Shown here: positions 3,406 to 64,000 of the stretch, one piece after another
Layout of the letters: every line of letters starts with the position of its first letter
Numbering within the stretch: the stretch's first letter is position 1
From: Candidatus Poribacteria bacterium
GTDB lineage: Bacteria > Poribacteria > WGA-4E > PCPOR2b
Assembly (NCBI GenBank): GCA_022822785.1
Contig: JAJEAL010000076.1
Location: 30,506 to 94,505, forward strand
Reading direction: 5' to 3'
DNA: 64,000 nucleotides
The notes under the pieces: model-generated
What the model was told of the DNA's origin: nothing
Databases searched by the model: none
What the model saw: the letters and a program-made list of their open reading frames with translations, nothing else
Made by a program: the position numbers and the translations under genes

Positions 3406-5184
3406 TTGGAAACTCAAACCCAACTCAATATTTCTGAACCCATTGATTCTGTTGAAGCCTATGAATTTGAGCCAATTCAAGGCTCCCCCATGCTCAACTG
3501 GAAGGGGAAACGCCCCTTCCAATCCACGCAATACTATCCCGTGCAACTGAAAGAGACGTATGGCGAAGAGATAAACGGTTGGCGGAACAAGATCTATTGG
3601 GGCGATAACTTGCAGGTTATGAGTCACCTGCTCAAGACCTACCGCGGGAAAATTACCTTGATTTATATCGATCCTCCGTTTGACTCGAAGGCAGAGTACA
3701 AAAAGCGGATAGAACTGAGGGGTAAAAAAGTAGAGAATGATCGCACTGCTTTTGAGGAGAAACAGTACACGGACATCTGGACGAATGATAAATACTTGCA
3801 GTTCATGTATGAACGACTGATTTTGATGCGAGAGTTGTTGGCGGAGGAGGGATCAATCTATCTTCATTGTGACCCTACTGCCGGTCACTACATCAAGGTT
3901 ATGATGGATGAGATCTTTGGAAATGAAAACTTTAGGAATGAGATTGTGTGGTGTTATACAGGGCCAAGTAGCCCAAACATGAAAAATTTCCCACGCAAGC
4001 ATGATACAATCTTTCGTTATTCAAAGTCTCAAGAGTGCTGTTGGAATCCACAGCGAATACCTTACAAGGATCCCAACCAAACACTACGTCGAGCGATGGA
4101 CGGCGGCGCAGGTATAGGTGCAGAAGAAGTAGAAAAATACCGAGCACAGGGTAAGCTCATAGAAGATTACTGGACCGATATTGCACTTGCTGTCCGCAGC
4201 CCTAAAGAACGGATTGATTACCCTACCCAAAAACCTGAAGCCCTGCTTGAACGCATCATCCAAGCGTCATCCAATCCTGGCGATCTTGTCATCGACTGCT
4301 TCATGGGTAGTGGGACGACACAAGCTGTCGCCATGAAACTTGGTCGCCGCTTTATCGGGGCAGATATCAACCTCGGTGCAGTGGAAATCACCACAAAACG
4401 CCTTCTCAACCAAGCTGCAGATATTCAGAAAAGCACGGCTCAAGGGGAAATCGACACGCGCCAAGAAGGCACAGAAGATATACAAACCTACTATACGGGT
4501 TTTGATGTCTACAACGTCAACTACTACGATGTATTCCGCAATCCCGTTGAGGCGAAAGACCTGCTGATTGAAGCGTTAGAGATTCAGCCGCTGTCTGATG
4601 GCGGAATCTACGACGGCGAAAAGGACGGCCGCATGGTAAAAATTATGCAGATCAACCGCATTGCGACCCGCGCTGATCTGAACGAGCTAATCACTGGCTT
4701 TGATTACCGTGCGTTTGAGAGGCGTCAGGAGGAACACCCAACGGTTCCGGTCGAAAAGCTGTTGCTGGTCTGTATGGGGCATGAACCCGACCTCGCCGCT
4801 GCCCTGCAAAACGAAGTGCTCCACAAACTTGACATTGAAGTGATGGATATCCTGCGCGACAAATCCAAGTTAGAGTTTAAGCGGGAATCCAAAGCGAAAA
4901 TTGTCCGTCGCAATAGACACATAATCATTGAGCAGTTCTACCCCATGAACCTCCTCCAGAAATTGAGCCTGATGGAAGAGAACGTCGAAGATTGGCGCGA
5001 GCTGGTCGAATCTGTGAAGATCGACTTCAACTACGACGGTGCCGTATTAAACCCATCGGAGGTAGACATACCCGAAGAAGGCGAATTGGTCAAAGGTTCT
5101 TACCCCATCCCCGACGACGCCGGCACGATCCGCGTTAAAATCACCGACCTACTCTCAGAATCTCTAGAAGAAGCGGTAGAATAA
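3406..5184 (+). CDS. mod: Type III restriction-modification methyltransferase (Mod subunit, beta-class N6-adenine/N4-cytosine MTase)
   Basis: Motif IV (IYIDPPFDSK) precedes motif I (VIDCFMGSGTTQAVAMKLGRRFIGADIN), separated by a long variable target-recognition region. The gene is adjacent to a Res-like helicase-endonuclease. It has a probable TTG start 7 nt after an AAGGAG ribosome-binding site. Confidence 0.8.
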   Translation: METQTQLNISEPIDSVEAYEFEPIQGSPMLNWKGKRPFQSTQYYPVQLKETYGEEINGWRNKIYWGDNLQVMSHLLKTYRGKITLIYIDPPFDSKAEYKKRIELRGKKVENDRTAFEEKQYTDIWTNDKYLQFMYERLILMRELLAEEGSIYLHCDPTAGHYIKVMMDEIFGNENFRNEIVWCYTGPSSPNMKNFPRKHDTIFRYSKSQECCWNPQRIPYKDPNQTLRRAMDGGAGIGAEEVEKYRAQGKLIEDYWTDIALAVRSPKERIDYPTQKPEALLERIIQASSNPGDLVIDCFMGSGTTQAVAMKLGRRFIGADINLGAVEITTKRLLNQAADIQKSTAQGEIDTRQEGTEDIQTYYTGFDVYNVNYYDVFRNPVEAKDLLIEALEIQPLSDGGIYDGEKDGRMVKIMQINRIATRADLNELITGFDYRAFERRQEEHPTVPVEKLLLVCMGHEPDLAAALQNEVLHKLDIEVMDILRDKSKLEFKRESKAKIVRRNRHIIIEQFYPMNLLQKLSLMEENVEDWRELVESVKIDFNYDGAVLNPSEVDIPEEGELVKGSYPIPDDAGTIRVKITDLLSESLEEAVE

Positions 5185-5203: not shown

Positions 5204-7813
5204 ATGGCACGAAACAGACGAACACAGATTAACATTGATTTTGCCTTCTTCACCTACCTACGCATCTTTTATAATGAGAATCGCGGACGCATCCGCACTC
5301 ACTTTCGGGATCTTGCCAAAAAATTCCTCGATTTCAACGACCCGGAGTCGGGCGCGTTTTTGCGGCAACCGCAATTTGAGGCGTTAGAGATGTATATCTT
5401 CATCAAGGAATATCTTGATAATCGGCACGTCCATCAGATTTTCGCAGACTGGCACGCAAGACAAAACGGCTTTGAGGCGAGGTCAAACCTCGGCGTAGAG
5501 CAAACTGAATTGTTCGGTGAGCTAGATGCAGAGCAGTATGAAGCCGTATTTGAATATATCCGACGGTTCGAGCGTACCTATCCGAATTATATCTTCGCAC
5601 TCCCAATGGGAACAGGTAAGACGATCCTTATGGCGGGCTGTATCTTCTACGAGTTTCTGCTCGCTAACAAATTCCCGAAAGATCCCAAGTACTGTCACAA
5701 CGCCCTCGTCTTCGCACCAGATAGAACTGTCCTTCAGTCCCTAAAGGAGATTCAGACCTTCGACATGGGGCTTGTTGTGCCTCCCGAATATGTCAACTTC
5801 CTATCAACCCATCTCAAATTTCACTTCCTCGAAGAAGCGGGCACTTCACTATCGACTATCGATCAATCGCGGTTTAACGTAATCATCTCTAATACTCAGA
5901 AGATTATCCTCAAGCGTCAACACGCAGAGCGAAGCCCGGCTGATACCCTGTTCAAGAGCGGTGCGCCGACCTATCAGCCCGGTAGCCCCTATGATGAGGC
6001 GTCCGACCTCTACGACTTTGATACTCCCGAAGATGAGAAAGAGCTGACCGTTAACCAACGATTTCAGAAGCTGACGCGACTCGAACAACTCGGTATCTTT
6101 GTCGATGAGGCGCATCACGCCTTCGGCACTAAATTGGCGAGGGACATGGGGATCCAGACATCAAAGACCAGTCTTCGACTCACCATCGATGAACTGGCAA
6201 CGAATCTGGAACGGGCAGGAACCCGTGTCTCTGCGTGCTACAATTTCACTGGAACACCTTACGTTGGCCAACAGGTCTTGCCAGAAGTGGTCTACGGCTA
6301 TGGTCTAAAGGAAGCGATCGACAAAGGGTTCCTCAAGCAAGTCACACTTAACAGCTACGAGAACACACAGAACTCAGAGTTTGTGCGGCTAGTAGTCAAC
6401 GATTTCTGGGAGAACCATAGGGAACAACGCCACGAGGGCATGTTGCCGAAACTCGCCCTCTTTGCTGCAACAATTGATGAGTTACAGAATGAGCTCCGTC
6501 CTGCGGTCGAATCTGCACTGAGTGATCTCGGTGTAGATCGCTCTCGCATCCTCGTCAACGTTGGCGATCCCAAACTAACCTCCAATGATGACCTACGTGA
6601 ATTCATCAACCTTGATACATCCGCATCCGAAAAACAGTTTATCCTGCTGGTCAATAAAGGGAAGGAAGGGTGGAACTGCCGATCTCTGTTCGGTGTCGCA
6701 CTCTATCGCAAGCCGAAATCGAAAATCTTTGTCCTACAGGCAAGTATGCGATGCTTGCGTCAAATCGGTGAAGGTCAACAGACCGGCAACGTCTACCTTT
6801 CCGAAGAAAACACACAAATCCTTGATGACGAGTTACAACAGAACTTCCGCCTAACTATTGACGAGATTGAGGACATCGGAAAAGAAAAGGTCAATTATGA
6901 GGTGCGCGTCAAAAAGCCGCCGGTAAAAGTAACACTGCAACGCATCCGAAAATTGCATACACTGATAGAAAAGCAACCGCAGAATGGAATGCGTTTAGAA
7001 CTCGATCAAGCGGACACAGAGAAATATCGCTTGGTACACCGGCAAAGGGCAGGACTCTCAGCATCAAACGAGGAGCAAGTCGAAGACCTGACCGAATTCA
7101 GGGAGCGACGCGATTTCAGTCAGTTGACACTCTGCGCGGAGATTGCCCGTTACCTCAACCGTTCACCTCTGGAAATAGAGAACATCCTGACGAAAACACA
7201 GGAGGGTATGGCCGAGATTCTTCGGAGCGTCAACGAGTTTAACGAACTGCTCTATGACTGGATTATTCCACGTCTCTTCAATGCGCTGTATGATCTGAAC
7301 GAATTTGAACACCACGAACCAGAGGAGATCGAACTGGTCAAAGCGCCAGAAGACGGCTACTACAAAGTCCGATCGAATCCGGAGCTAGTAGTTAAAGACG
7401 ACGAACCGGACGACCCAACAGTAAGAAATCATGGACACAAGAGTTTTCATCTTGATACCTACGCTTTTGATTCCCAGCCCGAACGCTCCTTATTCTGGTC
7501 CCTATTAAGAGAAGGAAAAGTAAACAAGGTCTATTTCACGGGAATGCTGACGCATGGTCAATCGGACTTCTACATCCAATACATTGACCCAGAATCCCAC
7601 GCTGTCAGACGCTATTACCCTGACTTCCTGATGCAGAAAGACGATAATTCGTGGGTAATCGTGGAAGTGAAGGGGGATAATATGATTGACGATAAAATAG
7701 TACAGGCAAAGGCATCTGCTACACAGCAGAGAGCGAGTGCAAGTGATATGTCTTACGAGATCATTAAGGGCAGCGACGCAGCGGCGGGACAGTATCAACG
7801 GTTATTAGAGTAA
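5204..7813 (+). CDS. res: Type III restriction enzyme Res subunit (SF2 helicase with C-terminal PD-(D/E)xK endonuclease)
   Basis: Walker A FALPMGTGKTILMAG and DEAH box IFVDEAHHAFG identify the helicase. A C-terminal YYPDFLMQKDDNSWVIVEVKGD endonuclease motif follows. The gene is 20 nt downstream of Mod on the same strand. Confidence 0.8.
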   Translation: MARNRRTQINIDFAFFTYLRIFYNENRGRIRTHFRDLAKKFLDFNDPESGAFLRQPQFEALEMYIFIKEYLDNRHVHQIFADWHARQNGFEARSNLGVEQTELFGELDAEQYEAVFEYIRRFERTYPNYIFALPMGTGKTILMAGCIFYEFLLANKFPKDPKYCHNALVFAPDRTVLQSLKEIQTFDMGLVVPPEYVNFLSTHLKFHFLEEAGTSLSTIDQSRFNVIISNTQKIILKRQHAERSPADTLFKSGAPTYQPGSPYDEASDLYDFDTPEDEKELTVNQRFQKLTRLEQLGIFVDEAHHAFGTKLARDMGIQTSKTSLRLTIDELATNLERAGTRVSACYNFTGTPYVGQQVLPEVVYGYGLKEAIDKGFLKQVTLNSYENTQNSEFVRLVVNDFWENHREQRHEGMLPKLALFAATIDELQNELRPAVESALSDLGVDRSRILVNVGDPKLTSNDDLREFINLDTSASEKQFILLVNKGKEGWNCRSLFGVALYRKPKSKIFVLQASMRCLRQIGEGQQTGNVYLSEENTQILDDELQQNFRLTIDEIEDIGKEKVNYEVRVKKPPVKVTLQRIRKLHTLIEKQPQNGMRLELDQADTEKYRLVHRQRAGLSASNEEQVEDLTEFRERRDFSQLTLCAEIARYLNRSPLEIENILTKTQEGMAEILRSVNEFNELLYDWIIPRLFNALYDLNEFEHHEPEEIELVKAPEDGYYKVRSNPELVVKDDEPDDPTVRNHGHKSFHLDTYAFDSQPERSLFWSLLREGKVNKVYFTGMLTHGQSDFYIQYIDPESHAVRRYYPDFLMQKDDNSWVIVEVKGDNMIDDKIVQAKASATQQRASASDMSYEIIKGSDAAAGQYQRLLE

Positions 7814-8673: not shown

Positions 8674-8793
8674 AACATAACCTAAGTTGCTAGTGATTGG
8701 AAATCCATCAGAACCTGTAGGTCGAGATTCACATCTCGACACAAAACCGTCGATTTTGATGAAGATTAATTTATAGTGAATTGTAAACATAAC

Positions 8794-8942
8794 TAGACAC
8801 TTTCGCTCTTCATGTTTGGTAGGCGCTGTTTCCGACTGCGCCTATACGGTGCGGTTTCTAACCGCACCTACCGGGGTAATAGCCCGGATTTTTCCAGCCC
8901 CGGTGGTCGAGGTTTCCTAACCTCGCCGATTGGCAGTGTCTA
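8794..8942. mobile_element. MITE-like intergenic repeat element, copy A (inverted relative to copy B)
   Basis: Ends TAGACACT (8794) and AGTGTCTA (8935) are reverse complements. Internal blocks ggcgcagtYggaaacagcgcctaccaaacatg and ggaaaaatccgggctatYaccccggtaggtgcgg are shared with copies at 11341-11579 and 61802-61905. A flanking AGAATTAAT motif is also shared. Confidence 0.65.
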
Positions 8943-9213
8943 ATTAATTCTAAAATCTACCATAATTGTATCAAATGAGGCCGATGATGAGGGGCTTGAG
9001 GCTCCGCATACATTCGTATTATGATACCGAAAAATCGACAAATTTCAGGCATTCAAATCCTTGATGAAAATTTCACTTTACAATTTCTTAATTTTGAGTT
9101 AAACTTATGATACAAAGGTCAGACCATTAATTATTATGCGAATAAATCGCTCTGTTGTCAAGCAAAATTACAGGTGAGAACCAAGAATAATAGTTCCTAA
9201 CGAGGAGATAGCC

Positions 9214-10963: not shown

Positions 10964-11323
10964 GTGTTGACAAGGACAAAAGATATGGTTCAGCTAACGA
11001 TGCAAGTTCCCGATGAATTGGCAACACAGATCCAGCCGATTGGCTCTTGGCTTCCAACCGTTATCGAGTTGAGTCTCATCGGATTTAAGACCTTGGCTGC
11101 CGCTACCACAGCCGAGACAATTCAGTTTTTATCAAAAAATCCTGACCCGCAGGAGGTGCTTAACTATCATGTTTCTGAAAGGGCGCAGGAGAGGCTTCAA
11201 CGCTTACTCACACTAAATCAAGCTGGATTGTTATCGGAGATGGAGCAACTTGAACTCGATGAACTGCAACAAATTGAGCATATTATCATCATGCTCAAAG
11301 CACAAGTTACATCACAGCTATAG
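10964..11323 (+). CDS. Hypothetical small protein
   Basis: An ORF only, lying between the MtaA-like gene and the repeat element. No motifs recognised. Confidence 0.3.
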   Translation: MLTRTKDMVQLTMQVPDELATQIQPIGSWLPTVIELSLIGFKTLAAATTAETIQFLSKNPDPQEVLNYHVSERAQERLQRLLTLNQAGLLSEMEQLELDELQQIEHIIIMLKAQVTSQL

Positions 11324-11340
11324 TAAAGTTTAGAATTAAT

Positions 11341-11579
11341 TGGACACTCTGTACCGGGGATGGGAAAATCCGGGCTATCACCCCGGTAGGTGCGGTTTCA
11401 TGAAGATTAATTTATTAATTGGGTAATTTGCTATTGACACCAGCGCGGTTGCAAGCCGCGCCTACCGGGTCTTGGGGAAATATAGAGTTACCCGATTATT
11501 TCCTGAAACTTCATCTAACCGCACCCCATCGGCGCAGTTGGAAACAGCGCCTACCAAACATGGGGAGCGAAAGTGTCTA
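11341..11579. mobile_element. MITE-like intergenic repeat element, copy B (longest copy)
   Basis: Left end AATTAATTGGACACT and right end GAGCGAAAGTGTCTA form terminal inverted repeats. Contains ggcgcagttggaaacagcgcctaccaaacatggggagcgaaagtgtcta and ggaaaatccgggctatcaccccggtaggtgcgg, shared with copies A and D. Confidence 0.65.
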
Positions 11580-11621
11580 TCTGTTTTTAGAATCCACTAT
11601 AAGTTCAAAGAGAAAAAAACT

Positions 11622-12468: not shown

Positions 12469-14424
12469 ATGAACAAAGAAGAATACCAGAAACGTTTAGA
12501 CAAAATAACAGAGCTGTTTTCAAGCATGGTAACTCATGCTGACCAACAATCGATGCATCGGTGCCCTTATAAAAACCGCTTCGATCAATGCACCGCTAAG
12601 TTCGGGTGTCGAAACCAGCGTAGGCCGCCTAGCGAAGGTTTGGTTGATAGGGAACGCAGATCTGCGTTCCCTACTAGCGTCCGCGGCACTCCAGAGGAAG
12701 GATTACTTTTGTGTGGTGGGGACGATAAGATTGACTATCGGACCGCGTGGGAAACTGAAGTTGCTAACGGCGCTTTCCTCGAAAATGAAGAAAACTACGG
12801 ATCGGGAACGGTAACACACGACAGCAAAAAGCGGCCTCTCGCAGCCGGAAAGACCATTTTCGATTACGCTGATGAACTCGCAGTTCAGGTGCCGACCTCC
12901 TGCTTCCGGACCGGGCAATGCCACGAATGTATTGTGGAAATTAAAGAGGGAATGGAGGCGCTGCGAACTCGGAACGAAGCAGAATCGTTTTTGCGAGAGA
13001 ACTATCGGCTCGCCTGCCAAGCAGTGGTTAAAGCCCCCGATATCGACATAGTGTTTTCGCCAATACGGCGCACCCCCAAGATCCTTACCCGTACGCACGA
13101 AAAACCCCTTCAAATTGACCCGTTAGTGACGCGCCGTGAAGACACGGTTTACTACGACGATGAGGCAGTTGACAGATACCGCGGTCATATCTACGGCTTG
13201 GCAATTGACCTCGGCACCACAACAGTCGTCATCGATTTAGTCGATCTGGAAACCGGTGAAAGTGTCCATGTCAGCTCCTTTGAAAACCCACAACGGTTCG
13301 GCGGCAGTGATATCATGCATCGCATTTCGTATGATGGTGAGTTCGGTGGCGAATTGCGCTGGTCAGTCATCAACGCGCTCAACCACGAAATTCGGGAAAT
13401 GGCTCAACAGTTAGGGTTCGTGCGTCAAGAAATTTACGAGATTGTTGTCGTGGGCAACTCGACCATGCGAGACATTTTCTTTAAGCTGGATGTACAAAGT
13501 ATCGGTCAAAAACCCTATCAATCGGTAATCGAGGGTCAATATCGTGCCGGTGAGCGCGAAACCACTTCCCTTATTGAAAAGACACGGCGACTTGGGATTC
13601 GAGCTAACCCCAAAGCGTGGGTGTATGGGCTGCCATTAATCGGCAGCCATGTTGGTGCCGACGTTGCAGCGGACCTAGTAGCACTCGACATGGCATCTCA
13701 AAAAGAGGTCGTCATGCTAGTAGATGTCGGCACGAATACTGAAGTGGTGGTTGGACATCCGGGGCGGCTGATTGCTGCGTCCTGCCCAGCAGGACCCGCT
13801 TTTGAGGGCGGCGGCATTAAGTACGGGATGCCCGGCTACGACGAAGCGATTGAGTCCGTCCGTTGGGTAGATGGTCAGATTGAATATAGTACGATCGGTG
13901 GCGTTGAACCTAAAGGCATCTGTGGCTCCGGTTTAATCGACCTATTGGCGGAGCTTCGTCGGAACGGACAGATGACTGAAATGGGGGTCTTCGGGAACAG
14001 AAAGACACGTGAGATACCCATTATCCCGGAATACGGCATCACTTTCTCCCGCGAAGATGCTAGCAATCTAGCGCAAGCTAAGGCTGCTAACTACTGCGGT
14101 CAATTCATCGTTATGCGAAGGTTCGGGATCAATCCGGCGGATATAAGTCGGCTCTATCTAGCGGGTGGTTTCGCCAATTATGTGGATGTGCGTAACGCAA
14201 TTGATATCGGGTTTTTGGCACCGGTAGATGAAAGCCGTATCTCCAAGATTGGCAACGCTGCGGTACAGGGCGCAAAGGAAGTACTCCTCTCACGAAAGAA
14301 ACGTGAGGATATTGAGCGTTTGGTCAAAGGGATAGAACATGTAGAATTGGAGACCACCTCCGATTTCTTTGAGGTGTTCGTCGAAGGGTGCCAATTTAAG
14401 CCGATGCCGACAGAGTTTGTGTGA
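12469..14424 (+). CDS. RamA/RACo-like reductive activator of corrinoid proteins (2Fe-2S ferredoxin plus ASKHA ATPase, DUF4445-like)
   Basis: N-terminal plant-type ferredoxin Cys pattern (SCFRTGQCHECIV...LACQ), followed by a large ASKHA-fold region (DLGTTTVV, VDVGTNTEVVVG). The length is about 650 aa. It is adjacent to a corrinoid protein. Confidence 0.7.
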   Translation: MNKEEYQKRLDKITELFSSMVTHADQQSMHRCPYKNRFDQCTAKFGCRNQRRPPSEGLVDRERRSAFPTSVRGTPEEGLLLCGGDDKIDYRTAWETEVANGAFLENEENYGSGTVTHDSKKRPLAAGKTIFDYADELAVQVPTSCFRTGQCHECIVEIKEGMEALRTRNEAESFLRENYRLACQAVVKAPDIDIVFSPIRRTPKILTRTHEKPLQIDPLVTRREDTVYYDDEAVDRYRGHIYGLAIDLGTTTVVIDLVDLETGESVHVSSFENPQRFGGSDIMHRISYDGEFGGELRWSVINALNHEIREMAQQLGFVRQEIYEIVVVGNSTMRDIFFKLDVQSIGQKPYQSVIEGQYRAGERETTSLIEKTRRLGIRANPKAWVYGLPLIGSHVGADVAADLVALDMASQKEVVMLVDVGTNTEVVVGHPGRLIAASCPAGPAFEGGGIKYGMPGYDEAIESVRWVDGQIEYSTIGGVEPKGICGSGLIDLLAELRRNGQMTEMGVFGNRKTREIPIIPEYGITFSREDASNLAQAKAANYCGQFIVMRRFGINPADISRLYLAGGFANYVDVRNAIDIGFLAPVDESRISKIGNAAVQGAKEVLLSRKKREDIERLVKGIEHVELETTSDFFEVFVEGCQFKPMPTEFV

Positions 14425-19749: not shown

Positions 19750-19834
19750 CAGAGCGGATGTAGATCTCGTTTGGTAGGGAACAACGATCGTTGTTCCTTA
19801 CAGATTCATTCAAAATGCTACGAGGTGGATAAAG
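19750..19834 (-). repeat. IS605-family right-end region with a hairpin (GGAACAACGATCGTTGTTCC); candidate omega-RNA scaffold
   Basis: A perfect palindromic hairpin lies immediately 3' of the tnpB stop on its strand. This is typical of the IS200/IS605 right end and the TnpB guide-RNA region. Confidence 0.5.
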
Positions 19835-57710: not shown

Positions 57711-58901
57711 ATGGACTTTACGTTGACCGCAGACCATGACGCTATCCGTAAGACTGCACGAGCGTTCTGTCGCTGTGAGCTTGTGCCACATCTCCGCGAC
57801 TGGGACCGTGCAGCGCACCTTCCACGTGAGGTCATACGGAAGATGGGGGCAGCGGGTCTGCTGGGGGTGTGCATTCCTCGGCGTTACGGTGGGTTAGGCT
57901 ACGATTACTTAAGTCTCGGTATTGTCTCCGAAGAACTAGAGCGTGCCGACAGCGCGTTCCGCGTATTGGTCGCTGTCCACCTTGGACTTAACTCGCTAGC
58001 GTTGTTTCAGTGGGGAAATGAAGCGCAAAAACAGGGTTATCTTGTCCCGCAGGCACGTGGCGAGAAATTGGCGGCGTTTGGGCTGACTGAGCCGGGTGCA
58101 GGCAGCGATGTCGCCGGTATCAGCACAACCGCCCGGCGCGATGGTAGCAGCTACATTCTCAACGGCGAGAAGATGTGGATCGGCTGCGCCGATATCGCTG
58201 ATCATTTCCTCATCTTCGCCTATACAGATCGCGAGGCGAAACACCGCGGTATCTCTGCGTTCATCGTTGAGCGCGGCTTTGAGGGCGTGACCACATCGAG
58301 CATCCACCATAAGCTAGGCGGTCGCATCGGCAATGTGGGCAGCATCTCCTTGCAGGACGTGCGTGTGCCGGTCGCAAATCGTGTCGGCGAGGAGGGCGAC
58401 GGTTTCAAAATTGCGATGAGTGCACTGGACAACGGACGCTACACCGTGGCGTCCGGCGCGGTCGGTTTGATAGAGGCGTGTCTTGAGGCAAGCGTGGCTT
58501 ACGCCACGAAACGTGAGACCTTCGGGCAACCCATCGGCAAACATCAGCTGGTCCAACAAAAAATCGCTAACATGGTCGCCGGGCGTGACATTGGGAGGCT
58601 GCTTTACTATCAGGTCGGCTGGATGAAAAATCAGGGAATGCGCTGCACACGCGAGGTGAGCCTCGCCAAATGGACGAACTGTCAACACGCCTTCCAGGCT
58701 GCGGACGACGCGATACAGATTCATGGCGCACACGGCTATAGCGACGAATATCCTGTAGAACGCTATTTTCGCAACGCCCGTGGAGCGTTAATTTATGAGG
58801 GAACACAGGAGATCCACCAGTTGATTCAAGCTGGGTATGCACTCGGTGACCGGGTTGATAAACCTGTGACGCAACCGCTGCCCTCCTATCCGTTTGAGTA
58901 G
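57711..58901 (+). CDS. Acyl-CoA dehydrogenase (glutaryl-CoA-dehydrogenase-like)
   Basis: Typical acyl-CoA dehydrogenase organisation with GLTEPGAGSD and a C-terminal IYEGTQEI. Confidence 0.85.
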   Translation: MDFTLTADHDAIRKTARAFCRCELVPHLRDWDRAAHLPREVIRKMGAAGLLGVCIPRRYGGLGYDYLSLGIVSEELERADSAFRVLVAVHLGLNSLALFQWGNEAQKQGYLVPQARGEKLAAFGLTEPGAGSDVAGISTTARRDGSSYILNGEKMWIGCADIADHFLIFAYTDREAKHRGISAFIVERGFEGVTTSSIHHKLGGRIGNVGSISLQDVRVPVANRVGEEGDGFKIAMSALDNGRYTVASGAVGLIEACLEASVAYATKRETFGQPIGKHQLVQQKIANMVAGRDIGRLLYYQVGWMKNQGMRCTREVSLAKWTNCQHAFQAADDAIQIHGAHGYSDEYPVERYFRNARGALIYEGTQEIHQLIQAGYALGDRVDKPVTQPLPSYPFE

Positions 58902-58959
58902 TCTCCAATAACATAAGAGGCACAGGTAAAAAGAAAGGGCAAAGGAGGAAAACGCATAA

Positions 58960-60153
58960 ATGACCTTGAGTCCATTGGACGGCATCCATGTTTTTGATCT
59001 GTCACGGCACTTGGCTGGTCCCTACTGCGCCATGATGTTGGGCGATTTGGGCGCGGAAGTCATCAAAGTTGAACGTCCCGGCGTCGGTGATGAAACCCGT
59101 CAGTGGGGCCCGCCGTTCCTCGGTGGCGAGTCCGCGTATTACCTCTGCTGTAACCGTAATAAAAAAAGCCTGACACTCAACCTCAAAGACAAGGGGGGCA
59201 TCGCTATTGCACAGAAACTGGCAGCACAAAGCGATGTGTTAATTGAGAATTTCCGTATCGGCGGTCTGGACGCAAGCGGTTTAGATTATGCATCGCTCAA
59301 GGAGATTAACCCGCGTCTGATTTATTGCTCCATCAGCGGTTTTGGACACACGGGCCCTGACCACGAGTTGCCGGGCTACGATTTCATGATTCAGGGACGC
59401 GGCGGTTTCATGTCCATCACCGGTGAACACGATGGAGCCCCCATGAAAGTTGGTGTCGCGATTGTGGATGTCGCCGCCGCACTGTTTGCGTGCAACGCTA
59501 TCTTGGCGGCGTTACTTGCGCGTGAGCGTACCGGCGAGGGACAGCATATTGACATCGCATTGCTCGACTCACAGATTGCACTGTTAGCAAACGTTGGGAG
59601 CAGCTATCTCTGTTCAGGTGAAGTGCCAGAACGCTGGGGTAACGCACATTCCAGTATCGTGCCGTACCAAGGGTTTCGGGCGATGGACGATTACCTCATC
59701 CTTGCTATCGGCAACGATGGGCAGTGGGAACGTTTCTGCACAGCGGCGGGGGTAAGTGCGTGGGCGGCGGATGAACGGTTTGCCACCAATCCGCAGCGCG
59801 TCGCTCACCGGACGGTATTGATTCCAATGCTAGAGGACCTGTTTCGTCAGAGATCTGTTGCAGAATGGTTACAACGCTGCGCTGATGCCGATGTTCCCGC
59901 GGGACCGGTCAACTCTCTCGATAAGGTGTTCGCTGACCCGCAGACACTAGCGCGAGGGATGCGGGTGGAGATGCCGCACCCAACGGCGGAGACCGTGCAA
60001 CTAGCAGGCACACCACTTAACCTATCGGGAACACCGACACAGATGCGGATGCCGCCGCCGCTGCTTGGAGAACACACCGACGAGATTCTTACCGGTCTGC
60101 TTGGATTGAACGACAAGGCGATTGCAGATCTGCGTCAAGACGGGGTTATTTAA
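58960..60153 (+). CDS. Family III CoA-transferase (CaiB/BaiF / formyl-CoA-transferase-like)
   Basis: LDGIHVFDLSRHLAGPYCAMMLGDLGAEVIKVERPGVGD and a catalytic Asp region. Confidence 0.85.
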   Translation: MTLSPLDGIHVFDLSRHLAGPYCAMMLGDLGAEVIKVERPGVGDETRQWGPPFLGGESAYYLCCNRNKKSLTLNLKDKGGIAIAQKLAAQSDVLIENFRIGGLDASGLDYASLKEINPRLIYCSISGFGHTGPDHELPGYDFMIQGRGGFMSITGEHDGAPMKVGVAIVDVAAALFACNAILAALLARERTGEGQHIDIALLDSQIALLANVGSSYLCSGEVPERWGNAHSSIVPYQGFRAMDDYLILAIGNDGQWERFCTAAGVSAWAADERFATNPQRVAHRTVLIPMLEDLFRQRSVAEWLQRCADADVPAGPVNSLDKVFADPQTLARGMRVEMPHPTAETVQLAGTPLNLSGTPTQMRMPPPLLGEHTDEILTGLLGLNDKAIADLRQDGVI

Positions 60154-60155
60154 AA

Positions 60156-61664
60156 ATGAGGAAAATATCGGAAACGTCCCTCTGGTTTTGTGTCCTTCTC
60201 TGCGGTGCTATGTTCTATAGTTGTGGTGGGACTTCAACAATTGAAGTCCCACCGCTCACACCACTAGAGCTGTCAAAGCCGGTACAACGATTACACGCAG
60301 CAATTGACGCCATACTGAACGACCCACTCATTGCCTCCTCAAACGTCGGGGTGAAGGTTGTTTCAATCGCAACGGGGGAGGTGCTTTATGAGAAAGACGC
60401 TGAAAAATTGTATCATCCCGCTTCAACCATGAAACTGATTACCGCAGCAACAGCACTGGCTAAACTCGGTCCAGACTACCGTTTCCATACCACGCTTTAC
60501 ATGGGTCACCTTGAAGACAGTCAGATCTCGCGGAATATCTATCTCAAAGGGCACGGTGATCCGATGTTTGATAGCGACGATCTGGAGAAGATGGTCGAAA
60601 GATTGGTGGAAATGGGTACGACAGATTTGCCGGGCGACATTGTGGTAGACGAAACCTACTTTGACGCTGTCCGATGGGGTAAAGGTTGGATGTGGGACGA
60701 TGGGCCTATCGGTGGGTACTATCCACATCTGAGTGCGCTGACGATTAACCGTAACGGTGTGCTTGTCCGCATCTCCCCCGGCAGTAAAGTTGATGATCCG
60801 GTTCGCGTTCAGCTTGACCCGCCCACAGAGTATATGAAAATTGTTAATAAAGCGACTACCGTAGGACACTCGGAAAAAACACGCCTGACAATTAAACGAA
60901 AAGATGAATCCGCCAAGGAGAACCTCCTAACGATTGATGGAATGATGGCAATCGGTCAAGCTGGGAGGAACCGACGTGTAGATGTACTTGCCCCGGCGCT
61001 CTACTGTGGCACACTATTGCGAGAAATGCTCGCAAAGCGGGGAATTACCGTCCAAGGAAAAGTGCGTTATGGCGAAGTACCTGAAGGAACAGCGGAAATC
61101 ATCACGCATGTATCCCCACCATTATCCCGTATCCTTTGGGAGATGAACAAGCCGAGCGATAACCTGATTGCCGAACTTCTGTTGAAAACAATCGGTGCTG
61201 AACTGAGCGGCAATCCGGGAACAGCAGAGAACGGCCTGGGAGCGACTAGTAATTTTTTAGGTGAAATTGGAATAGCTTGGGAACATTATACCCTTGCCGA
61301 TGGTTCGGGGGTATCTCGCTATAATTTAGTAACTGCTTCCCTGCTGACTGACCTGTTGGTCTATATGTTCCGCAATTTTGCGGTGATGCCCGACTACGTT
61401 GCGTCGCTGCCGATTGGAGGGGTGGATGGAACGCTAGCATGGCGGATGCAGGGCATGGCAGCGGAAGGGGTTTTACGCGCCAAAACCGGAACGTTGCGGG
61501 GGTTAACCGCACTTGCCGGCTATACGGTAACGTCGGACGGGGAAACGGTGGCATTCTCGATTATCATGAGCAATTATCACGGTCCTACAAGTCCGCGCCG
61601 CACCTTACAAGATAAAATTGGGAATATACTCACGCAGTTCAGCAGACGGGGTTCTATGGATTAA
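60156..61664 (+). CDS. dacB: D-alanyl-D-alanine carboxypeptidase/endopeptidase (PBP4, peptidase S13)
   Basis: Signal peptide, STMK active-site motif (PASTMKLITAATAL), SDN and KTG motifs. Confidence 0.8.
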   Translation: MRKISETSLWFCVLLCGAMFYSCGGTSTIEVPPLTPLELSKPVQRLHAAIDAILNDPLIASSNVGVKVVSIATGEVLYEKDAEKLYHPASTMKLITAATALAKLGPDYRFHTTLYMGHLEDSQISRNIYLKGHGDPMFDSDDLEKMVERLVEMGTTDLPGDIVVDETYFDAVRWGKGWMWDDGPIGGYYPHLSALTINRNGVLVRISPGSKVDDPVRVQLDPPTEYMKIVNKATTVGHSEKTRLTIKRKDESAKENLLTIDGMMAIGQAGRNRRVDVLAPALYCGTLLREMLAKRGITVQGKVRYGEVPEGTAEIITHVSPPLSRILWEMNKPSDNLIAELLLKTIGAELSGNPGTAENGLGATSNFLGEIGIAWEHYTLADGSGVSRYNLVTASLLTDLLVYMFRNFAVMPDYVASLPIGGVDGTLAWRMQGMAAEGVLRAKTGTLRGLTALAGYTVTSDGETVAFSIIMSNYHGPTSPRRTLQDKIGNILTQFSRRGSMD

Positions 61665-61801
61665 CGGAATACTCGCTACCCATAACAACCGGCATAAGAA
61701 CGCGCAATGGATTGCGCTACTACAAACAGCGGGGCAAGATGCCCGCCTACTGGGTGCAGGCGTGGCCACACCTAAAACTATGGTGAATTTTAGAATTACT
61801 T

Positions 61802-61905
61802 GGACACTCTATACCGGCGCAGTTGGAAACAGCGCCTACCAAATGGGAAACTGGACGGCGCAGTTGGAAACAGCGCCTACCAAACATGGGGATCGAAAGT
61901 GTCTA
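61802..61905. mobile_element. MITE-like repeat element, copy D (short form with a duplicated internal unit)
   Basis: AGAATTACTTGGACACT at the left end and GAAAGTGTCTA at the right end. The internal unit gcgcagttggaaacagcgcctaccaaa occurs twice in tandem. Confidence 0.65.
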
Positions 61906-61987
61906 CATATTTATATTGTTCACCATAAATAGCCTTGTGTTATCCTAGAGGCTGTTTATCCGACCTCACACAATTGAGGAGACTACA

Positions 61988-62911
61988 ATGTCCACGACTA
62001 TAGAGGATAAAGAAACAGAATTTGGGGATGTCACCATCGAACGACCTGAAGAGGGGCAACCGCACAAGGGCAAGGTGTTCGCTGCAGTTCAACCCCATGC
62101 GGACGACATCCCGCTTTTCTGTGGCGGCACAATCGCCAAATTCATCGCAGAAGGCTATACCGGCTACCTCATCCAAACAACCAATGACGAAAAGTGCGGA
62201 CCGACACCAAGTATCGGTGAAACCATCCTAAGCAATGAACGCGAGGTGGACGAGTTAGCGAAAGTGCTGGGACTCAAGGGGATTTTTAATCTTGGATACC
62301 GGAACCACCGTCTCGACGAAGCGTCACCGTTAGAGCTGCGGGCTCGACTGGTTTTCCTGTTTCGCACCTTGAAAGTTGACACCGTATTCACCTTTAACCC
62401 TTGGGGGCATAGCGAGGAGAACCCCGATCACTATGTAACCGCACATGCGGTCGAAGCCGCCCGCTGGATGGCTGGTATGGCAAAGGATTATCCAGAACAG
62501 GTAGCACTCGGCATTGCGCCCCACACGGTAAGAGAGCAGTATTACTGGGTCGCGCGTCCGGGGCAACCGTACAATCGGGTGGTCGATATCAGCGATTATA
62601 TGGATGAGAAGGTCGCTTCGATGAGCGTGAATAAATCGCAGGGACCGGCGGGCTCAAGCGGGTCCACGCTCAAAACACGACTTGAGAAGCAGGGACTGCA
62701 CTTGCCGGCACTAGATGGCGATGACGAGACAGCGGATCGTGCGTATATCAAGCTGTTCGGCTTACAAGCTTACAAAGCGCTCGGTCAGAAGTATGGGCTT
62801 GAATATGCGGAGAATTTCTACTATGTCGGTCCGGGTGGGACCTTTGTGGGCTGCGTTGACCCGGAAGAGGTTGAAAGATATATTGCCGAAAACGCGGCAC
62901 CCATCAAATAG
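61988..62911 (+). CDS. PIG-L/LmbE-family N-acetylglucosaminyl deacetylase
   Basis: VFAAVQPHADDIPLFCGGTIAKF and downstream His motifs. Confidence 0.75.
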   Translation: MSTTIEDKETEFGDVTIERPEEGQPHKGKVFAAVQPHADDIPLFCGGTIAKFIAEGYTGYLIQTTNDEKCGPTPSIGETILSNEREVDELAKVLGLKGIFNLGYRNHRLDEASPLELRARLVFLFRTLKVDTVFTFNPWGHSEENPDHYVTAHAVEAARWMAGMAKDYPEQVALGIAPHTVREQYYWVARPGQPYNRVVDISDYMDEKVASMSVNKSQGPAGSSGSTLKTRLEKQGLHLPALDGDDETADRAYIKLFGLQAYKALGQKYGLEYAENFYYVGPGGTFVGCVDPEEVERYIAENAAPIK

Positions 62912-62948
62912 GGGAAAGGTTAATCAAATTAAAGAGAGGCAGATTCAA

Positions 62949-63752
62949 ATGGGAACGAACACAGAAGCTAAACTGACTTCAGCACAACGTTACTTCTACG
63001 ACGTCAACGGTTACGTCCTGCTCAAGAGCATCCTCAGTCCGCCGGACTGTCAGCGTCTCATCGATCTGGCGGATCAGATGGACGCCGATGACGGATGCGT
63101 CTACAAGCACGACGGCTATCCGAAAACCCCGACACTTACCGTTCTCTCACGGTGTGCTTGGTATCATCCACACCTACTGGAAACAGCAATGCATCCAATC
63201 CTACTCCCGATTATTCAAGATGTGGTTGGCGGCGATGTGCGCCTTGAGGAACATCAATACCTGATTAACTACTCAAATGGGGAAGACTCTAGCAAATTAT
63301 CCCATGTCAAGGATGAGGGGTGGCACCGGGGCACTGCTCCGAATTTCGGCAGCTTTGAGGCGGATGGACACTATCACTGTATGTTTAGCAAAGCCTTCAT
63401 CTACCTGACGGATAACGGCCCGGGCGAGGGCACGTGGGTGGTGCCGGGCAGTCATCGGATGGATATCCCGACGAAGACGCTGCGCGGGTTCATGGATGAG
63501 ACCTTAGCAACGCAGCTGCAATCCCAAGCGGGCGATGTTCTCATCTTGAGCGAAACATTAATCCACGCCGGCCCCACGCTCAAAGCCGGCGCATCCCCGC
63601 GCTATTCGCTGGTCTACGGATACACGCCGCCATTCATGCAAACATGGCGGCGCTATGATCCGCCGGCAGATTTACTTGAGCAGGTGACCCCGGAGCAACG
63701 ACAGTTTTTGGCGGGTGAGATTCGCTACGGATTCCGCCGAGGAGAATTCTGA
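62949..63752 (+). CDS. Phytanoyl-CoA dioxygenase (PhyH) family oxygenase
   Basis: FYDVNGYVLLKSILSP N-terminus and a 2-His-1-Asp-like arrangement. The start is set at the ATG at 62949, downstream of an AAAGAGAGG ribosome-binding site. Confidence 0.6.
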   Translation: MGTNTEAKLTSAQRYFYDVNGYVLLKSILSPPDCQRLIDLADQMDADDGCVYKHDGYPKTPTLTVLSRCAWYHPHLLETAMHPILLPIIQDVVGGDVRLEEHQYLINYSNGEDSSKLSHVKDEGWHRGTAPNFGSFEADGHYHCMFSKAFIYLTDNGPGEGTWVVPGSHRMDIPTKTLRGFMDETLATQLQSQAGDVLILSETLIHAGPTLKAGASPRYSLVYGYTPPFMQTWRRYDPPADLLEQVTPEQRQFLAGEIRYGFRRGEF

Positions 63753-64000
63753 AAGAGAGATTTCACACTGTCAGGACTTACGCAAATTTAGCACGCGGTG
63801 CGAGATTGTTCCATTTTTAACCCCCTAAACCCCCCTTGTCAGGGGGACTTATGAATCAACAACATAAGCCATAAGTGTATTAGACGTTGGATGAAAAGAC
63901 GAAAATTGCTTCACGGAACTGTCCAAGCGGTCGTCCATCATAAGTTACATTTAGAGGGATGACAGTGCGTTGGGCACCGTTGATGTGTGTCGGAATGGGA

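What the first reader, a model, noticed from the sequence alone, without database searches (positions are those of the whole stretch)
8794..8942. MITE-like repeat family with TAGACACT / AGTGTCTA ends at four intergenic loci
Copies occur at 8794-8942, 11341-11579, 57371-57490 and 61802-61905. They share nearly identical blocks (ggcgcagtYggaaacagcgcctaccaaacatgRRgagcgaaagtgtcta and ggaaaaatccgggctatYaccccggtaggtgcgg) and an AGAATTAAYTRGACACT terminus. Copy A is inverted relative to copy B. Copy D is a short form with a tandemly duplicated internal unit. All four sit in 5' intergenic regions: the GntR regulator and hypothetical gene pair, the corrinoid protein, the oxidoreductase and ACAD divergent region, and the PIG-L deacetylase. 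In the ORF track they create artefactual N-terminal extensions of neighbouring genes. Four copies in 64 kb implies a highly abundant non-autonomous element that could also supply promoters or RNA structure to adjacent genes.
Basis: seen in the sequence. Interest (0 to 1): 0.6.

Follow-up and report, generated by a model that had tools for sequence, protein, structure and literature searches.

The report
Miniature transposon family in sponge symbiont
The four repeats are copies of a small non-coding transposon (a MITE) that inserts at TA sites, has ends matching a 0.9-kb IS630-type insertion sequence, and is spread through sponge-associated Poribacteria; it is a real but fairly ordinary kind of mobile DNA.

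Summary
Each copy is bounded by imperfect ~30-nt terminal inverted repeats (TA-TRGTRRATTYTARAAWTAMWTAGACACT) and flanked by TA.

Copies A (8772-8964, minus strand), B (11319-11601) and D (61779-61927) are complete. C (57349-57392) is a truncated left end.

The same termini occur in 39 species-level Candidatus Poribacteria genomes; I collected 97 two-ended copies of 94-283 bp. Filled and empty sites show clean TA duplication. Identical copies sit megabases apart in one chromosome.

A 909-bp IS630-family insertion sequence from sponge-metagenome assemblies, with a truncated copy in a Poribacteria genome, is also flanked by TA. It has an HTH orfA and a DDE_3 orfB. Its ends match the MITE ends as well as they match each other, so it is the likely mobilising partner.

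Copy B also carries a nested 115-bp second MITE sitting in a hairpin loop.

The element shows no orientation bias, and 12 of 78 copies lie between convergent genes. There are no Rfam hits. It is therefore not a leader RNA, and promoter supply is unproven.

Verdict: new member of a known kind; moderate interest.

The parts
8772..8964 (-). MITE copy A, complete, 193 bp including the flanking TA at each end. In element orientation the AGAATTA-type 'left' TIR is 8935-8964 and the 'right' TIR is 8772-8801.
   Evidence: (I1-I5). It is 88% identical over 203 nt to L105 2632-2834 in another Poribacteria genome.
8817..8930 (.). Cargo of copy A. It holds three GC-rich hairpins of the GTAG+palindrome type: GTAGGCGCTGTTTCCGACTGCGCC at about 8819-8842, GGTGCGGTTTCTAACCGCACCTAC at 8848-8871, and GGTCGAGGTTTCCTAACCTCGCC at about 8908-8930. 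It also holds the CCGGGG...CCCCGG stem at 8871-8904.
   Evidence: Covariation of this hairpin class is shown.
8758..8773 (+). Left end of a second MITE family, 'E2' (ATGAAGATTAATTTA). Copy A appears to have inserted into it at a TA.
   Evidence: (D8), plus a direct reading. This is inference, not a clean empty site.
11319..11601 (+). MITE copy B, complete, 283 bp including the flanking TA at each end. Left TIR is 11319-11348 and right TIR is 11572-11601. The first three element bases (TAG, 11321-11323) form the stop codon of ORF 10964-11323. The right end lies 20 nt before the corrinoid-protein ATG at 11622.
11400..11514 (+). E2, a 115-bp second MITE-like element with about 28-nt TIRs (ATGAAGATTAATTTATTAATTGGGTAAT / ...CTTCAT). 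It is nested in the loop of the GGTGCGGTT..AACCGCACC hairpin of copy B.
   Evidence: (82% identity to L053 316-432; nine copies seen).
57349..57392 (+). Copy C, a truncated MITE. It consists of the left TIR (57349-57378) plus the 5' half of a GTAG hairpin (GTAGTGCAAGCTGT). There is no right end.
   Evidence: The intact subfamily relative is L085 957-1087.
57393..57480 (+). Truncated E2 copy inserted into the hairpin loop of copy C. Its right end and the rest of the MITE are deleted.
   Evidence: The flank resumes with sequence orthologous to L100.
61779..61927 (+). MITE copy D, complete, 149 bp including the flanking TA at each end. Its cargo is the hairpin unit GGCGCAGTTGGAAACAGCGCCTACCAAA, duplicated at 61815-61843 and 61856-61884.
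   Evidence: (D1, D5, I2). Short-read contigs L119 and L120 break at this repeat. The orthologous intergenic region in L100 lacks it.

Best explanation
The four loci hold copies of a non-autonomous DNA transposon (a MITE) derived from an IS630-family insertion sequence, and most likely mobilised in trans by its transposase.

**Anatomy.** Each copy has imperfect ~30-nt terminal inverted repeats with a conserved outer box (TRGTRRATT) and inner box (TAGACAYT). These are the presumed binding and cleavage sites for the IS's HTH + DD35E transposase.

**Insertion.** Copies insert at TA dinucleotides, preferring A-W-Y-TA-R-W-T, and duplicate the TA.

**Cargo.** The body is non-coding and modular. It holds one to three GC-rich hairpins of the GTAG+palindrome (REP) type. 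These have been exchanged, duplicated (copy D) and themselves hit by a second small element, E2 (copies B and C).

**Shown here:** the repeat family; the TIRs; TA duplication from filled and empty sites; near-identical copies within single genomes; and an IS with matching ends and an IS630-type transposase.

**Inferred:** that this particular transposase moves the MITE; that a frameshift on the A8 run joins orfA to orfB; and that copies lying inside co-directional gene arrays (copy B) are transcribed and fold into long stem structures that could affect mRNA processing.
For: 1. **Terminus specificity.** There are 4 hits in the window against 0.02 expected. In the genome collection, 100 of 112 hit stretches are Poribacteria MAGs, spanning 39 species-level genomes. 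There are 0 termini in 444 kb of unrelated metagenome loci.
2. **Copy set and ends.** I collected 97 two-ended copies of 94-283 bp. Conservation stops 3 nt outside the TA, and there is no direct repeat longer than TA.
3. **Empty sites.** L049 784-949 is filled and its paralogue L049 4542-4615 is empty (...ctacaacTA|agtcgcacc..., 97% over 75 nt). L069 4301-4438 is filled and orthologous L022 2729-2815 is empty. L014 3822-3951 is inserted at the TA inside another copy's TIR.
4. **Recent amplification.** 100%-identical copies lie megabases apart on one chromosome: L103/L088 on OZ242029.1 and L018/L090 on OZ244950.1.
5. **Partner IS.** It is 909 bp including TA-TA and was seen in five copies (L113-L117), plus a truncated copy in L017. 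orfA matches HTH_Tnp_IS630 at E = 3.6e-30. orfB matches DDE_3 at E = 3.5e-30 and NCBIfam transpos_IS630 at 101.4 bits against a cut-off of 100.
6. **Matching ends.**
   - The IS ends match the MITE consensus at 19-23 of 30 positions, while the IS's own two ends match each other at 19 of 30.
   - MITE-L resembles IS-R most closely, and MITE-R resembles IS-L most closely.
   - The inner 24 nt score 16-17, with P <= 4e-4 against random Poribacteria 30-mers.
   - The regular expression I built from MITE ends hits both ends of every IS copy.
7. **Genomic position.** Copies show no orientation bias and avoid ORFs. The counts are 24 + 21 tandem, 21 divergent, 12 convergent, and 1 of 97 inside an ORF call.
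Against: - No IS copy lies in the 64-kb window.
- In several complete Poribacteria chromosomes only 63-109-aa transposase fragments were seen. Current activity in the window's own genome is therefore unknown.
- MITE and IS share only the TIRs; the MITE interior is unrelated to the IS.
- TIR identity is moderate (about 65-75%).
- A duplicated TA cannot formally be told apart from a terminal TA that belongs to the element.
- No clean empty site was obtained for copies A, B or D themselves. At D the ortholog in L100 has different intergenic content.
- No transposition experiment exists.
Confidence: 0.88

Rival explanations
1. The elements are REP/BIME-like mosaics spread by a RAYT (Y1 tyrosine transposase) rather than by a DDE transposase. 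On this view the long inverted ends are just linker motifs.
For: - The cargo hairpins fit the REP definition of GT[A/G]G plus a palindrome (PMC3686654).
- Palindrome+CTAC hairpins are enriched in Poribacteria loci: 162, against 46-93 for most control tails.
- A RAYT-like gene flanked by such hairpins exists in sponge-metagenome contig L121.
Against: - The mobile unit defined by filled and empty sites is the whole TIR-to-TIR element with TA duplication, not the hairpin.
- The TIRs match an IS630 element.
- Subfamilies with non-REP cargo have the same ends.
- Y1 transposases make no TIRs and no TA duplication (established knowledge of the IS200/IS605 and RAYT families).
- 133 of the 162 hairpins lie outside these elements.
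Confidence: 0.04
2. The repeats are a conserved cis-regulatory leader (a riboswitch or attenuator) or a promoter/operator cassette. On this view they are kept by selection in front of particular genes rather than being mobile.
For: - All four window copies sit next to at least one gene 5' end.
- 18 of 113 element ends lie <=30 nt from a start codon.
- TIR-L contains TAGAAT and TTGGACA/TTAGACA hexamers that score as weak sigma-70-like matches.
- The predicted RNA structure is strong.
Against: - No Rfam family matches.
- Both orientations are equally common in tandem gene pairs (24 against 21), and 12 of 78 copies lie between convergent genes.
- Flanking genes are functionally unrelated.
- Orthologous sites differ in presence or absence.
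- The interior is not conserved while the ends are. That is the pattern of transposase recognition, not of a ligand-binding RNA.
Confidence: 0.03
3. It is a MITE as described, but many copies have been exapted. Copies lying inside operons, or just upstream of start codons, would act as RNA processing or stability elements, or as outward promoters, as Correia elements do in Neisseria.
For: - Copy B lies between co-directional genes, 20 nt before the corrinoid-protein ATG, and supplies the stop codon of the upstream ORF.
- Fold energies are -51 to -106 kcal/mol, with z-scores of -5.3 to -7.9.
- The hairpin cargo keeps pairing through compensatory changes.
- There is precedent in Correia elements (PMC2649163 abstract; PMC2229807).
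Against: - There are no expression data.
- Promoter matches are weak, and the TIR has no good -35 box reading outward (plus direct reading).
- The distance distribution to start codons is broad, 2-569 nt.
- Hairpin covariation could equally reflect a DNA-level requirement, for example a RAYT substrate.
Confidence: 0.2

Closest known systems
Correia / NEMIS elements (CREE) of Neisseria
   Same: - Both are 100-160-bp non-coding elements with ~26-30-nt TIRs and TA at the termini, present in many intergenic copies whose transcripts fold into long stems (PMC2229807, PMC2649163).
- The outer TIR bases are nearly the same. Correia has TATAGTGGATTAA... (PMC5039591). The right TIR of copy B is TATAGTGGATTCTAAAAACAG.
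- One Correia variant also has GGACAA at the same distance from the end as the GGACA/AGACA inner box found here. It matches IS-L at 18 of 29 positions.
   Different: - The host phylum differs.
- Overall TIR identity is only 10-18 of 28-29.
- The interior is unrelated.
- No IHF site, promoter or RNase III role has been tested here.
- For the Poribacteria family a candidate parent IS was found. I know of no parent described for Correia; that is from my own knowledge, not something the papers I read establish.
RUP of Streptococcus pneumoniae with IS630-Spn1 (an IS630-derived bacterial MITE)
   Same: Both are small non-coding elements whose TIRs resemble those of an IS630-family IS in the same host. 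Both insert at TA, target other mobile elements and form nested insertions (PMC2229807).
   Different: The TIRs here are much longer (30 nt against 9 nt). The cargo is modular, made of REP-like hairpins. The family spans a whole candidate phylum rather than one species.
REP / REPIN-RAYT systems (for the cargo hairpins only)
   Same: The hairpins share the GT[A/G]G tetranucleotide followed by a GC-rich palindrome, have many sequence classes per genome and are extragenic (PMC3686654). One class flanks a RAYT-like gene.
   Different: Here the hairpins ride inside a TIR-bounded DDE-type MITE. The cognate RAYT for the classes in the window copies was not identified. The RAYT-like protein scores below the NCBIfam cut-off (44.9 bits against 80).
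IS1397 / ISKpn1-type insertion into REP loops (for the nested E2 element; from my own knowledge, not checked in a paper here)
   Same: E2 sits in the loop of REP-like hairpins in at least 5 of the 9 copies seen.
   Different: E2 is a 115-bp non-coding element with about 28-nt TIRs and no evident duplication. Its transposase is unknown.

Membership tests
Prokaryotic MITE (non-autonomous DNA transposon) | Small size (<~300 bp) and no coding capacity | tested here: met
   The 97 two-ended copies measure 94-283 bp. ORFs that cross them are artefactual extensions.
Prokaryotic MITE (non-autonomous DNA transposon) | Terminal inverted repeats | tested here: met
   The imperfect ~30-nt TIR is conserved in 194 ends. 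In the window it appears as I1, I2 and I5.
Prokaryotic MITE (non-autonomous DNA transposon) | Target-site duplication shown by filled and empty sites | tested here: met
   TA is duplicated at L049 (a paralogous pair), at L069/L022 (an orthologous pair) and at L014 (insertion inside another copy's TIR). No longer duplication exists.
Prokaryotic MITE (non-autonomous DNA transposon) | Multiple dispersed copies, including near-identical ones, within a genome | tested here: met
   The scan hit more than 112 stretches. 100%-identical copies lie Mb apart on OZ242029.1 and OZ244950.1.
Prokaryotic MITE (non-autonomous DNA transposon) | TIRs shared with an autonomous IS of the same lineage | tested here: met
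   The 909-bp IS in L113-L117, with a fragment in Poribacteria MAG locus L017, matches the MITE ends at 19-23 of 30 positions. The pairing is end-specific: MITE-L with IS-R and MITE-R with IS-L.
Prokaryotic MITE (non-autonomous DNA transposon) | Mobilisation by that transposase | not testable with these tools
   This needs a binding or transposition assay.
IS630 family (the partner IS) | IS630-type transposase: an HTH domain plus a DDE_3 catalytic domain with DD35E spacing | tested here: met
   HTH_Tnp_IS630 matches at E = 3.6e-30 and DDE_3 at E = 3.5e-30. NCBIfam transpos_IS630 scores 101.4 bits against a cut-off of 100. From D (MDNA) to E (NPVE) is 35 residues, read from the translation.
IS630 family (the partner IS) | Insertion at TA with TA duplication | tested here: met
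   All five IS copies are flanked by TA on both sides, with left flank ..ATT|TA. No empty site was obtained for the IS itself.
Correia/NEMIS elements | The 26-bp Correia TIR sequence and the conserved Correia core, in Neisseria | tested here: not met
   Only the outer ~11 nt and a GGACA box are shared, giving 10-18 of 28-29 identity. The host is Poribacteria. It works like a Correia element but is not a member.
REP elements (cargo hairpins) | A 5' GT[A/G]G followed by a palindrome, numerous and extragenic | tested here: met
   The definition is from PMC3686654. The stems covary: 94.4% of cells are paired, 5 of 9 pairs change on both sides, and 0 of 500 shuffles reach this. That set was hand-picked, so it is biased towards hairpins.
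REP elements (cargo hairpins) | A cognate RAYT gene flanked by the same REP class | tested here: inconclusive
   This is met for the class GGGAACAACGATCGTTGTTCCC. In L121 the hairpins lie at 978-1005 and 1631-1656, with one more inside the ORF. However, the protein scores below the NCBIfam cut-off, and no RAYT was sought for the classes carried by the window MITEs.
Riboswitch / structured leader RNA | Match to a described family, fixed orientation and position relative to a regulated gene | tested here: not met
   Rfam at gathering threshold gives 0 hits. There is no orientation bias, and copies occur between convergent genes.

The most novel reading that the evidence does not exclude
Poribacteria intergenic DNA may hold a three-layer nested system of small mobile elements.
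1. An IS630-type MITE carries REP-type (RAYT-substrate) hairpins as cargo.
2. Those hairpin loops are in turn the specific landing sites of a second TIR-bearing MITE, E2.
3. So one transposition system ferries the targets of two others around the genome.

A further, weaker possibility concerns Correia elements. The Poribacteria IS/MITE TIR shares a two-part pattern with the Neisseria Correia TIR: TATAGTGGATT at the outer end and GGACA at the same spacing. This may point to the IS630 subgroup from which the so far parentless Correia elements derive.
Probability: 0.3. Interest if true: 0.55.

Novelty: new member of a known kind. Interest (0 to 1): 0.38.

Why it matters
**Genome annotation and assembly.** Poribacteria are uncultivated sponge symbionts known only from MAGs and single cells. 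A MITE family present at an estimated order of a hundred or more copies per genome has practical consequences:
- It breaks short-read assemblies; contigs L119 and L120 end at copy D.
- It creates false N-terminal ORF extensions.
- It can supply stop codons, as copy B does.

**Lineage marker.** The ~30-nt TIR is almost exclusive to the phylum. That makes it a cheap diagnostic for Poribacteria contigs in sponge metagenomes.

**Experiments.** The 0.9-kb IS630 partner is one of the smaller IS630-type elements, going by my own knowledge of the family. Together with its MITE it gives a defined transposase/TIR pair that could be tested in E. coli.

**Biology.** The modular REP-like cargo and the hairpin-loop-targeting E2 element offer a compact case of interaction between different mobile-DNA systems. 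None of this changes current understanding of how MITEs work.

Tried and rejected
1. **Rfam gathering scan of the whole window.** No hits, so no known riboswitch or leader.
2. **Autonomous copy among the 112 loci.** I paired MITE-type termini 0.6-3.5 kb apart. This gave only two solo ends around ordinary genes. The single outer-box pair enclosed a 312-aa ORF that, by reading its sequence, looks like a sugar-phosphate isomerase (not scanned against Pfam) rather than a transposase. The IS was found instead through a 'solo' terminus in L017.
3. **Duplications longer than TA, at every boundary offset.** None.
4. **Metagenome scan with the corrinoid protein, seeking strain-level empty sites for copies A and B.**
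   - It returned 80 loci at 77-85% protein identity.
   - They came from soil and marine samples.
   - They hold no MITE termini in 444 kb.
   - They are useful only as a negative control.
5. **Exact-protein look-ups of window genes.** These returned only the same sample's scaffolds.
6. **Viral-contig scan for the terminus.** It gave 50 stretches. None has the outer TIR, and the recurrent hit lies in what reads as a coding-sequence start, ATGACAAATACAGTAGAATTACTTGGACACTATGG.
7. **Sigma-70 and terminator consensus scan.** Only weak matches involving the TIR, which cannot support a promoter claim.
8. **Literature searches.** Poribacteria with MITE, with IS630 and with RAYT/REP returned nothing.
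9. **Clean empty site for copy D in the ortholog L100.** The intergenic region there is different DNA with a small minus-strand ORF, so there is no base-precise comparison.

Full report
**Observation**

That is four matches at up to 3 mismatches against 0.02 expected, and none of 100 shuffles reached four. The two long shared blocks are there as described. Copy A is inverted relative to B (I1/I3/I5). Copy D contains an exact 29-nt duplication at 61815-61843 and 61856-61884 (D1).

The repeat finder also showed that similarity does not stop at TAGACACT/AGTGTCTA. It runs a further 22 nt outwards to TATRGT (D3-D5, I1, I2, I5). The real limits, including a TA on each side, are:
- A: 8772-8964, minus orientation
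- B: 11319-11601
- D: 61779-61927

Copy C has only a left terminus (57349-57378) followed by 14 nt of a half hairpin.

**Where else it occurs**

Of these, 100 are Candidatus Poribacteria MAGs, from 39 species-level genomes with a genuine TIR context. The 12 hits in other taxa lack the outer TIR and are chance matches.

Locus L100 (OZ242036.1) is orthologous to window 56588-63996 at 83-89% identity. The window is therefore from a Poribacteria genome. It also matches a sponge-metagenome scaffold.

**Anatomy of the family**

From the window plus the 112 loci I collected 97 copies with both ends. They measure 94-283 bp, with modes near 104, 117 and 138 bp.

The ends are imperfect ~30-nt inverted repeats with the consensus (A-W-Y)-TA-TRGTRRATTYTARAAWTAMWTAGACACT. 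The two ends differ consistently: AGAATTA on the 'left' and AGAAATAA on the 'right'. Conservation stops three bases outside the TA. No direct repeat longer than TA exists at any boundary offset.

The interior is not conserved across subfamilies, whereas the ends are.

**Evidence of mobility**

I rebuilt 'empty sites' (left flank + TA + right flank) and searched for them. This gave:
- A clean paralogous pair in L049: filled ...ctacaacTA[161 nt]TAagtcgcacc..., empty ...ctacaacTAagtcgcacc..., 97% identity over 75 nt.
- An orthologous pair: L069 4301-4438 filled, L022 2729-2815 empty.
- A second, less clean orthologous pair: L069 5234-5335 against L022 3524-3602.
- A copy, L014 3822-3951, inserted at the TA of TTT-TA-GAATTA inside another copy's TIR.

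Copies that are 100% identical lie megabases apart on the same chromosome. These are L103/L088 on OZ242029.1 and L018/L090 on OZ244950.1. This points to recent amplification within lineages.

Near the window's copy C, the ortholog L100 has a full 220-bp copy at a different position that the window lacks. At copy D's site L100 has unrelated intergenic DNA.

**The autonomous partner**

A 'solo' terminus in L017 is followed by the 3' part of a gene with the motifs VIMDNARIH...LPPYSPDYNPVE. Its homologues are 186-aa DDE_3 proteins.

Their contigs show a 909-bp element, including TA-TA, in five copies at about 91% identity:
- L113 2170-3078
- L114 2170-3078
- L115
- L116
- L117

The coding parts are as follows:
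- **orfA.** It is 106 aa and matches HTH_Tnp_IS630 at E = 3.6e-30.
- **orfB.** It is 186 aa. It matches DDE_3 at E = 3.5e-30 and NCBIfam transpos_IS630 at 101.4 bits against a cut-off of 100.
- **The overlap.** orfA overlaps orfB at a conserved A8 run. I infer this to be a frameshift site.
- **Catalytic spacing.** The D-to-E spacing is 35 residues, read.

The IS ends are IS-L TATAGTAAACCCAAGAAATAACGGGACAAT and IS-R TATAGTAGATTTAACAATTACCGATACATA. They compare with the MITE ends as follows:
- They match the MITE consensus at 19-23 of 30 positions. The two IS ends match each other at only 19 of 30.
- MITE-L is closest to IS-R (23) and MITE-R is closest to IS-L (22), as expected for an internal-deletion derivative.
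- The inner 24 nt alone score 16-17, with P <= 4e-4 against random Poribacteria 30-mers.
- The regular expression I had built from MITE ends hits both ends of all five IS copies.

Every IS copy is flanked by ..ATT-TA and TA. Shorter homologues, which I read as fragments of this transposase, lie on contigs whose lengths match Poribacteria chromosomes that also carry the MITE. No IS copy is in the window.

**The cargo**

Read on the other strand, this is GTAG followed by a palindrome. That is the published definition of a REP element (PMC3686654).

Minimal 101-108-nt copies from different species carry exactly one such hairpin at the same place. Their stems differ but compensate: GGCGAGG/CCTCGCC, GGTGCGG/CCGCACC and GGTTCGG/CCGAAAC.

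On 18 modules, 94.4% of cells pair. Five of nine pairs change on both sides, and no shuffle out of 500 reaches this. The set was hand-picked, so the paired fraction is biased.

Palindrome+CTAC hairpins are enriched throughout the Poribacteria loci: 162 against 46-93 for most control tails, though ACT gave 135. Of the 162, 133 lie outside this MITE, and they fall into many sequence classes.

One class, GGGAACAACGATCGTTGTTCCC, flanks and even interrupts a RAYT-like Y1 gene in L121. That protein scores below the NCBIfam cut-off. The cargo is therefore REP-like. Its own RAYT was not identified.

**The second element, E2**

Copy B is long because a 115-bp element with ~28-nt TIRs (ATGAAGATTAATTTATTAATTCGGTAAT...) sits at 11400-11514. 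It splits the hairpin GGTGCGGTTTC|...|CTAACCGCACC.

Nine copies were seen. In at least five, E2 lies in the loop of a REP-like hairpin, and the stems differ between cases:
- window copies B and C
- L059
- L098
- L040

No duplication is evident.

Copy C is a MITE of the L085 subfamily whose first hairpin was hit by E2 and which was then truncated. Copy A appears to have inserted at a TA within the left end of an E2 copy at 8758-8773. This rests on reading the sequence, not on a clean test.

**What it is not**

- There are no Rfam hits.
- Among copies with both neighbours classified there are 24 + 21 tandem (both orientations), 21 divergent and 12 convergent. One of 97 lies inside an ORF call. 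There is thus no orientation rule and no restriction to 5' regions.
- Distances from an element end to the next start codon are broad (2-569 nt), although 18 of 113 are <=30 nt.
- The flanking genes in the window are unrelated in function:
  - a GntR/FCD regulator
  - a hypothetical protein
  - a corrinoid protein
  - a GFO/IDH/MocA oxidoreductase
  - an acyl-CoA dehydrogenase
  - an S13 peptidase
  - a PIG-L deacetylase
- Promoter-like matches involving the TIR are weak.

**Possible effects on neighbours (inferred)**

Transcribed copies would fold into long TIR-closed stems:
- -83 kcal/mol, z -7.9 for copy A
- -51 kcal/mol, z -5.3 for copy D
- -106 kcal/mol, z -6.2 for copy B

Copy B lies between co-directional genes. 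It supplies the TAG stop of ORF 10964-11323 and ends 20 nt before the corrinoid-protein ATG. It is probably part of a polycistronic transcript.

**Comparison with known systems**

In mechanism and anatomy this is an IS630-derived bacterial MITE, like RUP with IS630-Spn1 (PMC2229807). It most resembles Correia/NEMIS elements of Neisseria in size, long TIRs, TA termini and stem-forming transcripts (PMC2229807, PMC2649163).

The outer TIR bases are almost those of Correia: TATAGTGGATTAA... (PMC5039591) against TATAGTGGATTCT... in copy B. One Correia variant shares a GGACA box at the same spacing. Overall identity is only 10-18 of 28-29, so it is not a member of that family.

I found no paper linking Poribacteria with MITEs, IS630 or REP/RAYT.

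**Verdict**

The MITE interpretation is supported, and a cognate IS630-type partner was identified. It is a new member of a known kind. The nested REP-like cargo and the loop-targeting E2 element are the more unusual side features.

Noticed in passing
window 11400-11514, 57393-57480, 8758-8773; L053 316-432, L059 ~3620-3730, L098 4557-4673, L040 ~6450-6560: A second MITE-like family, 'E2', of about 115 bp with ~28-nt TIRs beginning ATGAAGATTAATTT, carries its own GTAG-type hairpin. In at least five of the nine copies seen it sits in the loop of a REP-like hairpin, with different stems in different cases and no evident target duplication. Its transposase is unknown.
   Followed up: partly
L121 978-1005, 1365-1391, 1631-1656 with gene 1201-1620; window 19773-19801 and 12649-12674: A RAYT-like Y1 gene (P0041, 139 aa) matches NCBIfam REP_Tyr_transpos at E = 1e-11 but below the cut-off. 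It is flanked by GTAG-GGGAACAACGATCGTTGTTCCC hairpins and has one more copy inserted in frame inside the ORF. The same hairpin class occurs in the window at 19773-19801, with a variant at 12649-12674. The variant lies inside the long ORF called for the RACo gene, upstream of its first Pfam domain.
   Followed up: partly
window 8677-8758; L073 6454-6535; L100 683-700 and 878-895; window 57556-57580: A further intergenic repeat contains the motif TAAC(C/G)NAAGTTGCTAG and a GTAG-GTCGAGAT..ATCTCGAC hairpin. It is 90% identical between the window and L073 and lies close to gene starts. What it is remains unknown.
   Followed up: no
window 61701-61760: Two more REP-like hairpins (GCGCAATGGATTGCGCTAC and GGGGCAAGATGCCCGCCTAC) lie immediately upstream of copy D. 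A closely similar arrangement is seen in L073 in the output.
   Followed up: no
window 63771-63855: A stand-alone copy of the module CCCCCTAAA(C/T)CCCCCTT(G/A)TCAGGGGGAC has no TIRs here. This module is the cargo of the 138-bp MITE subfamily in other genomes. It is 87-88% identical to L016 5312-5395 and L105 1184-1260.
   Followed up: no
window 11319-11323: The stop codon TAG of the hypothetical ORF 10964-11323 is formed by the first three bases of MITE copy B (TA|TAG). Without the element the frame would run about 20 codons further, into the start of the corrinoid-protein gene.
   Followed up: partly
L069 4301-4438 versus L022 2729-2815: In the empty ortholog the TA target lies inside the spacer of a good sigma-70-like promoter (TTGACG-17 nt-TATCAA) upstream of the downstream gene. 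The insertion therefore separates the -35 box from the -10 box.
   Followed up: no
L113 2525-2545, L114 2525-2545: The IS630-type partner is only 909 bp. Its transposase is split into orfA (106 aa) and orfB (186 aa), which overlap at a conserved A8 run. This suggests programmed frameshifting or transcriptional slippage.
   Followed up: partly
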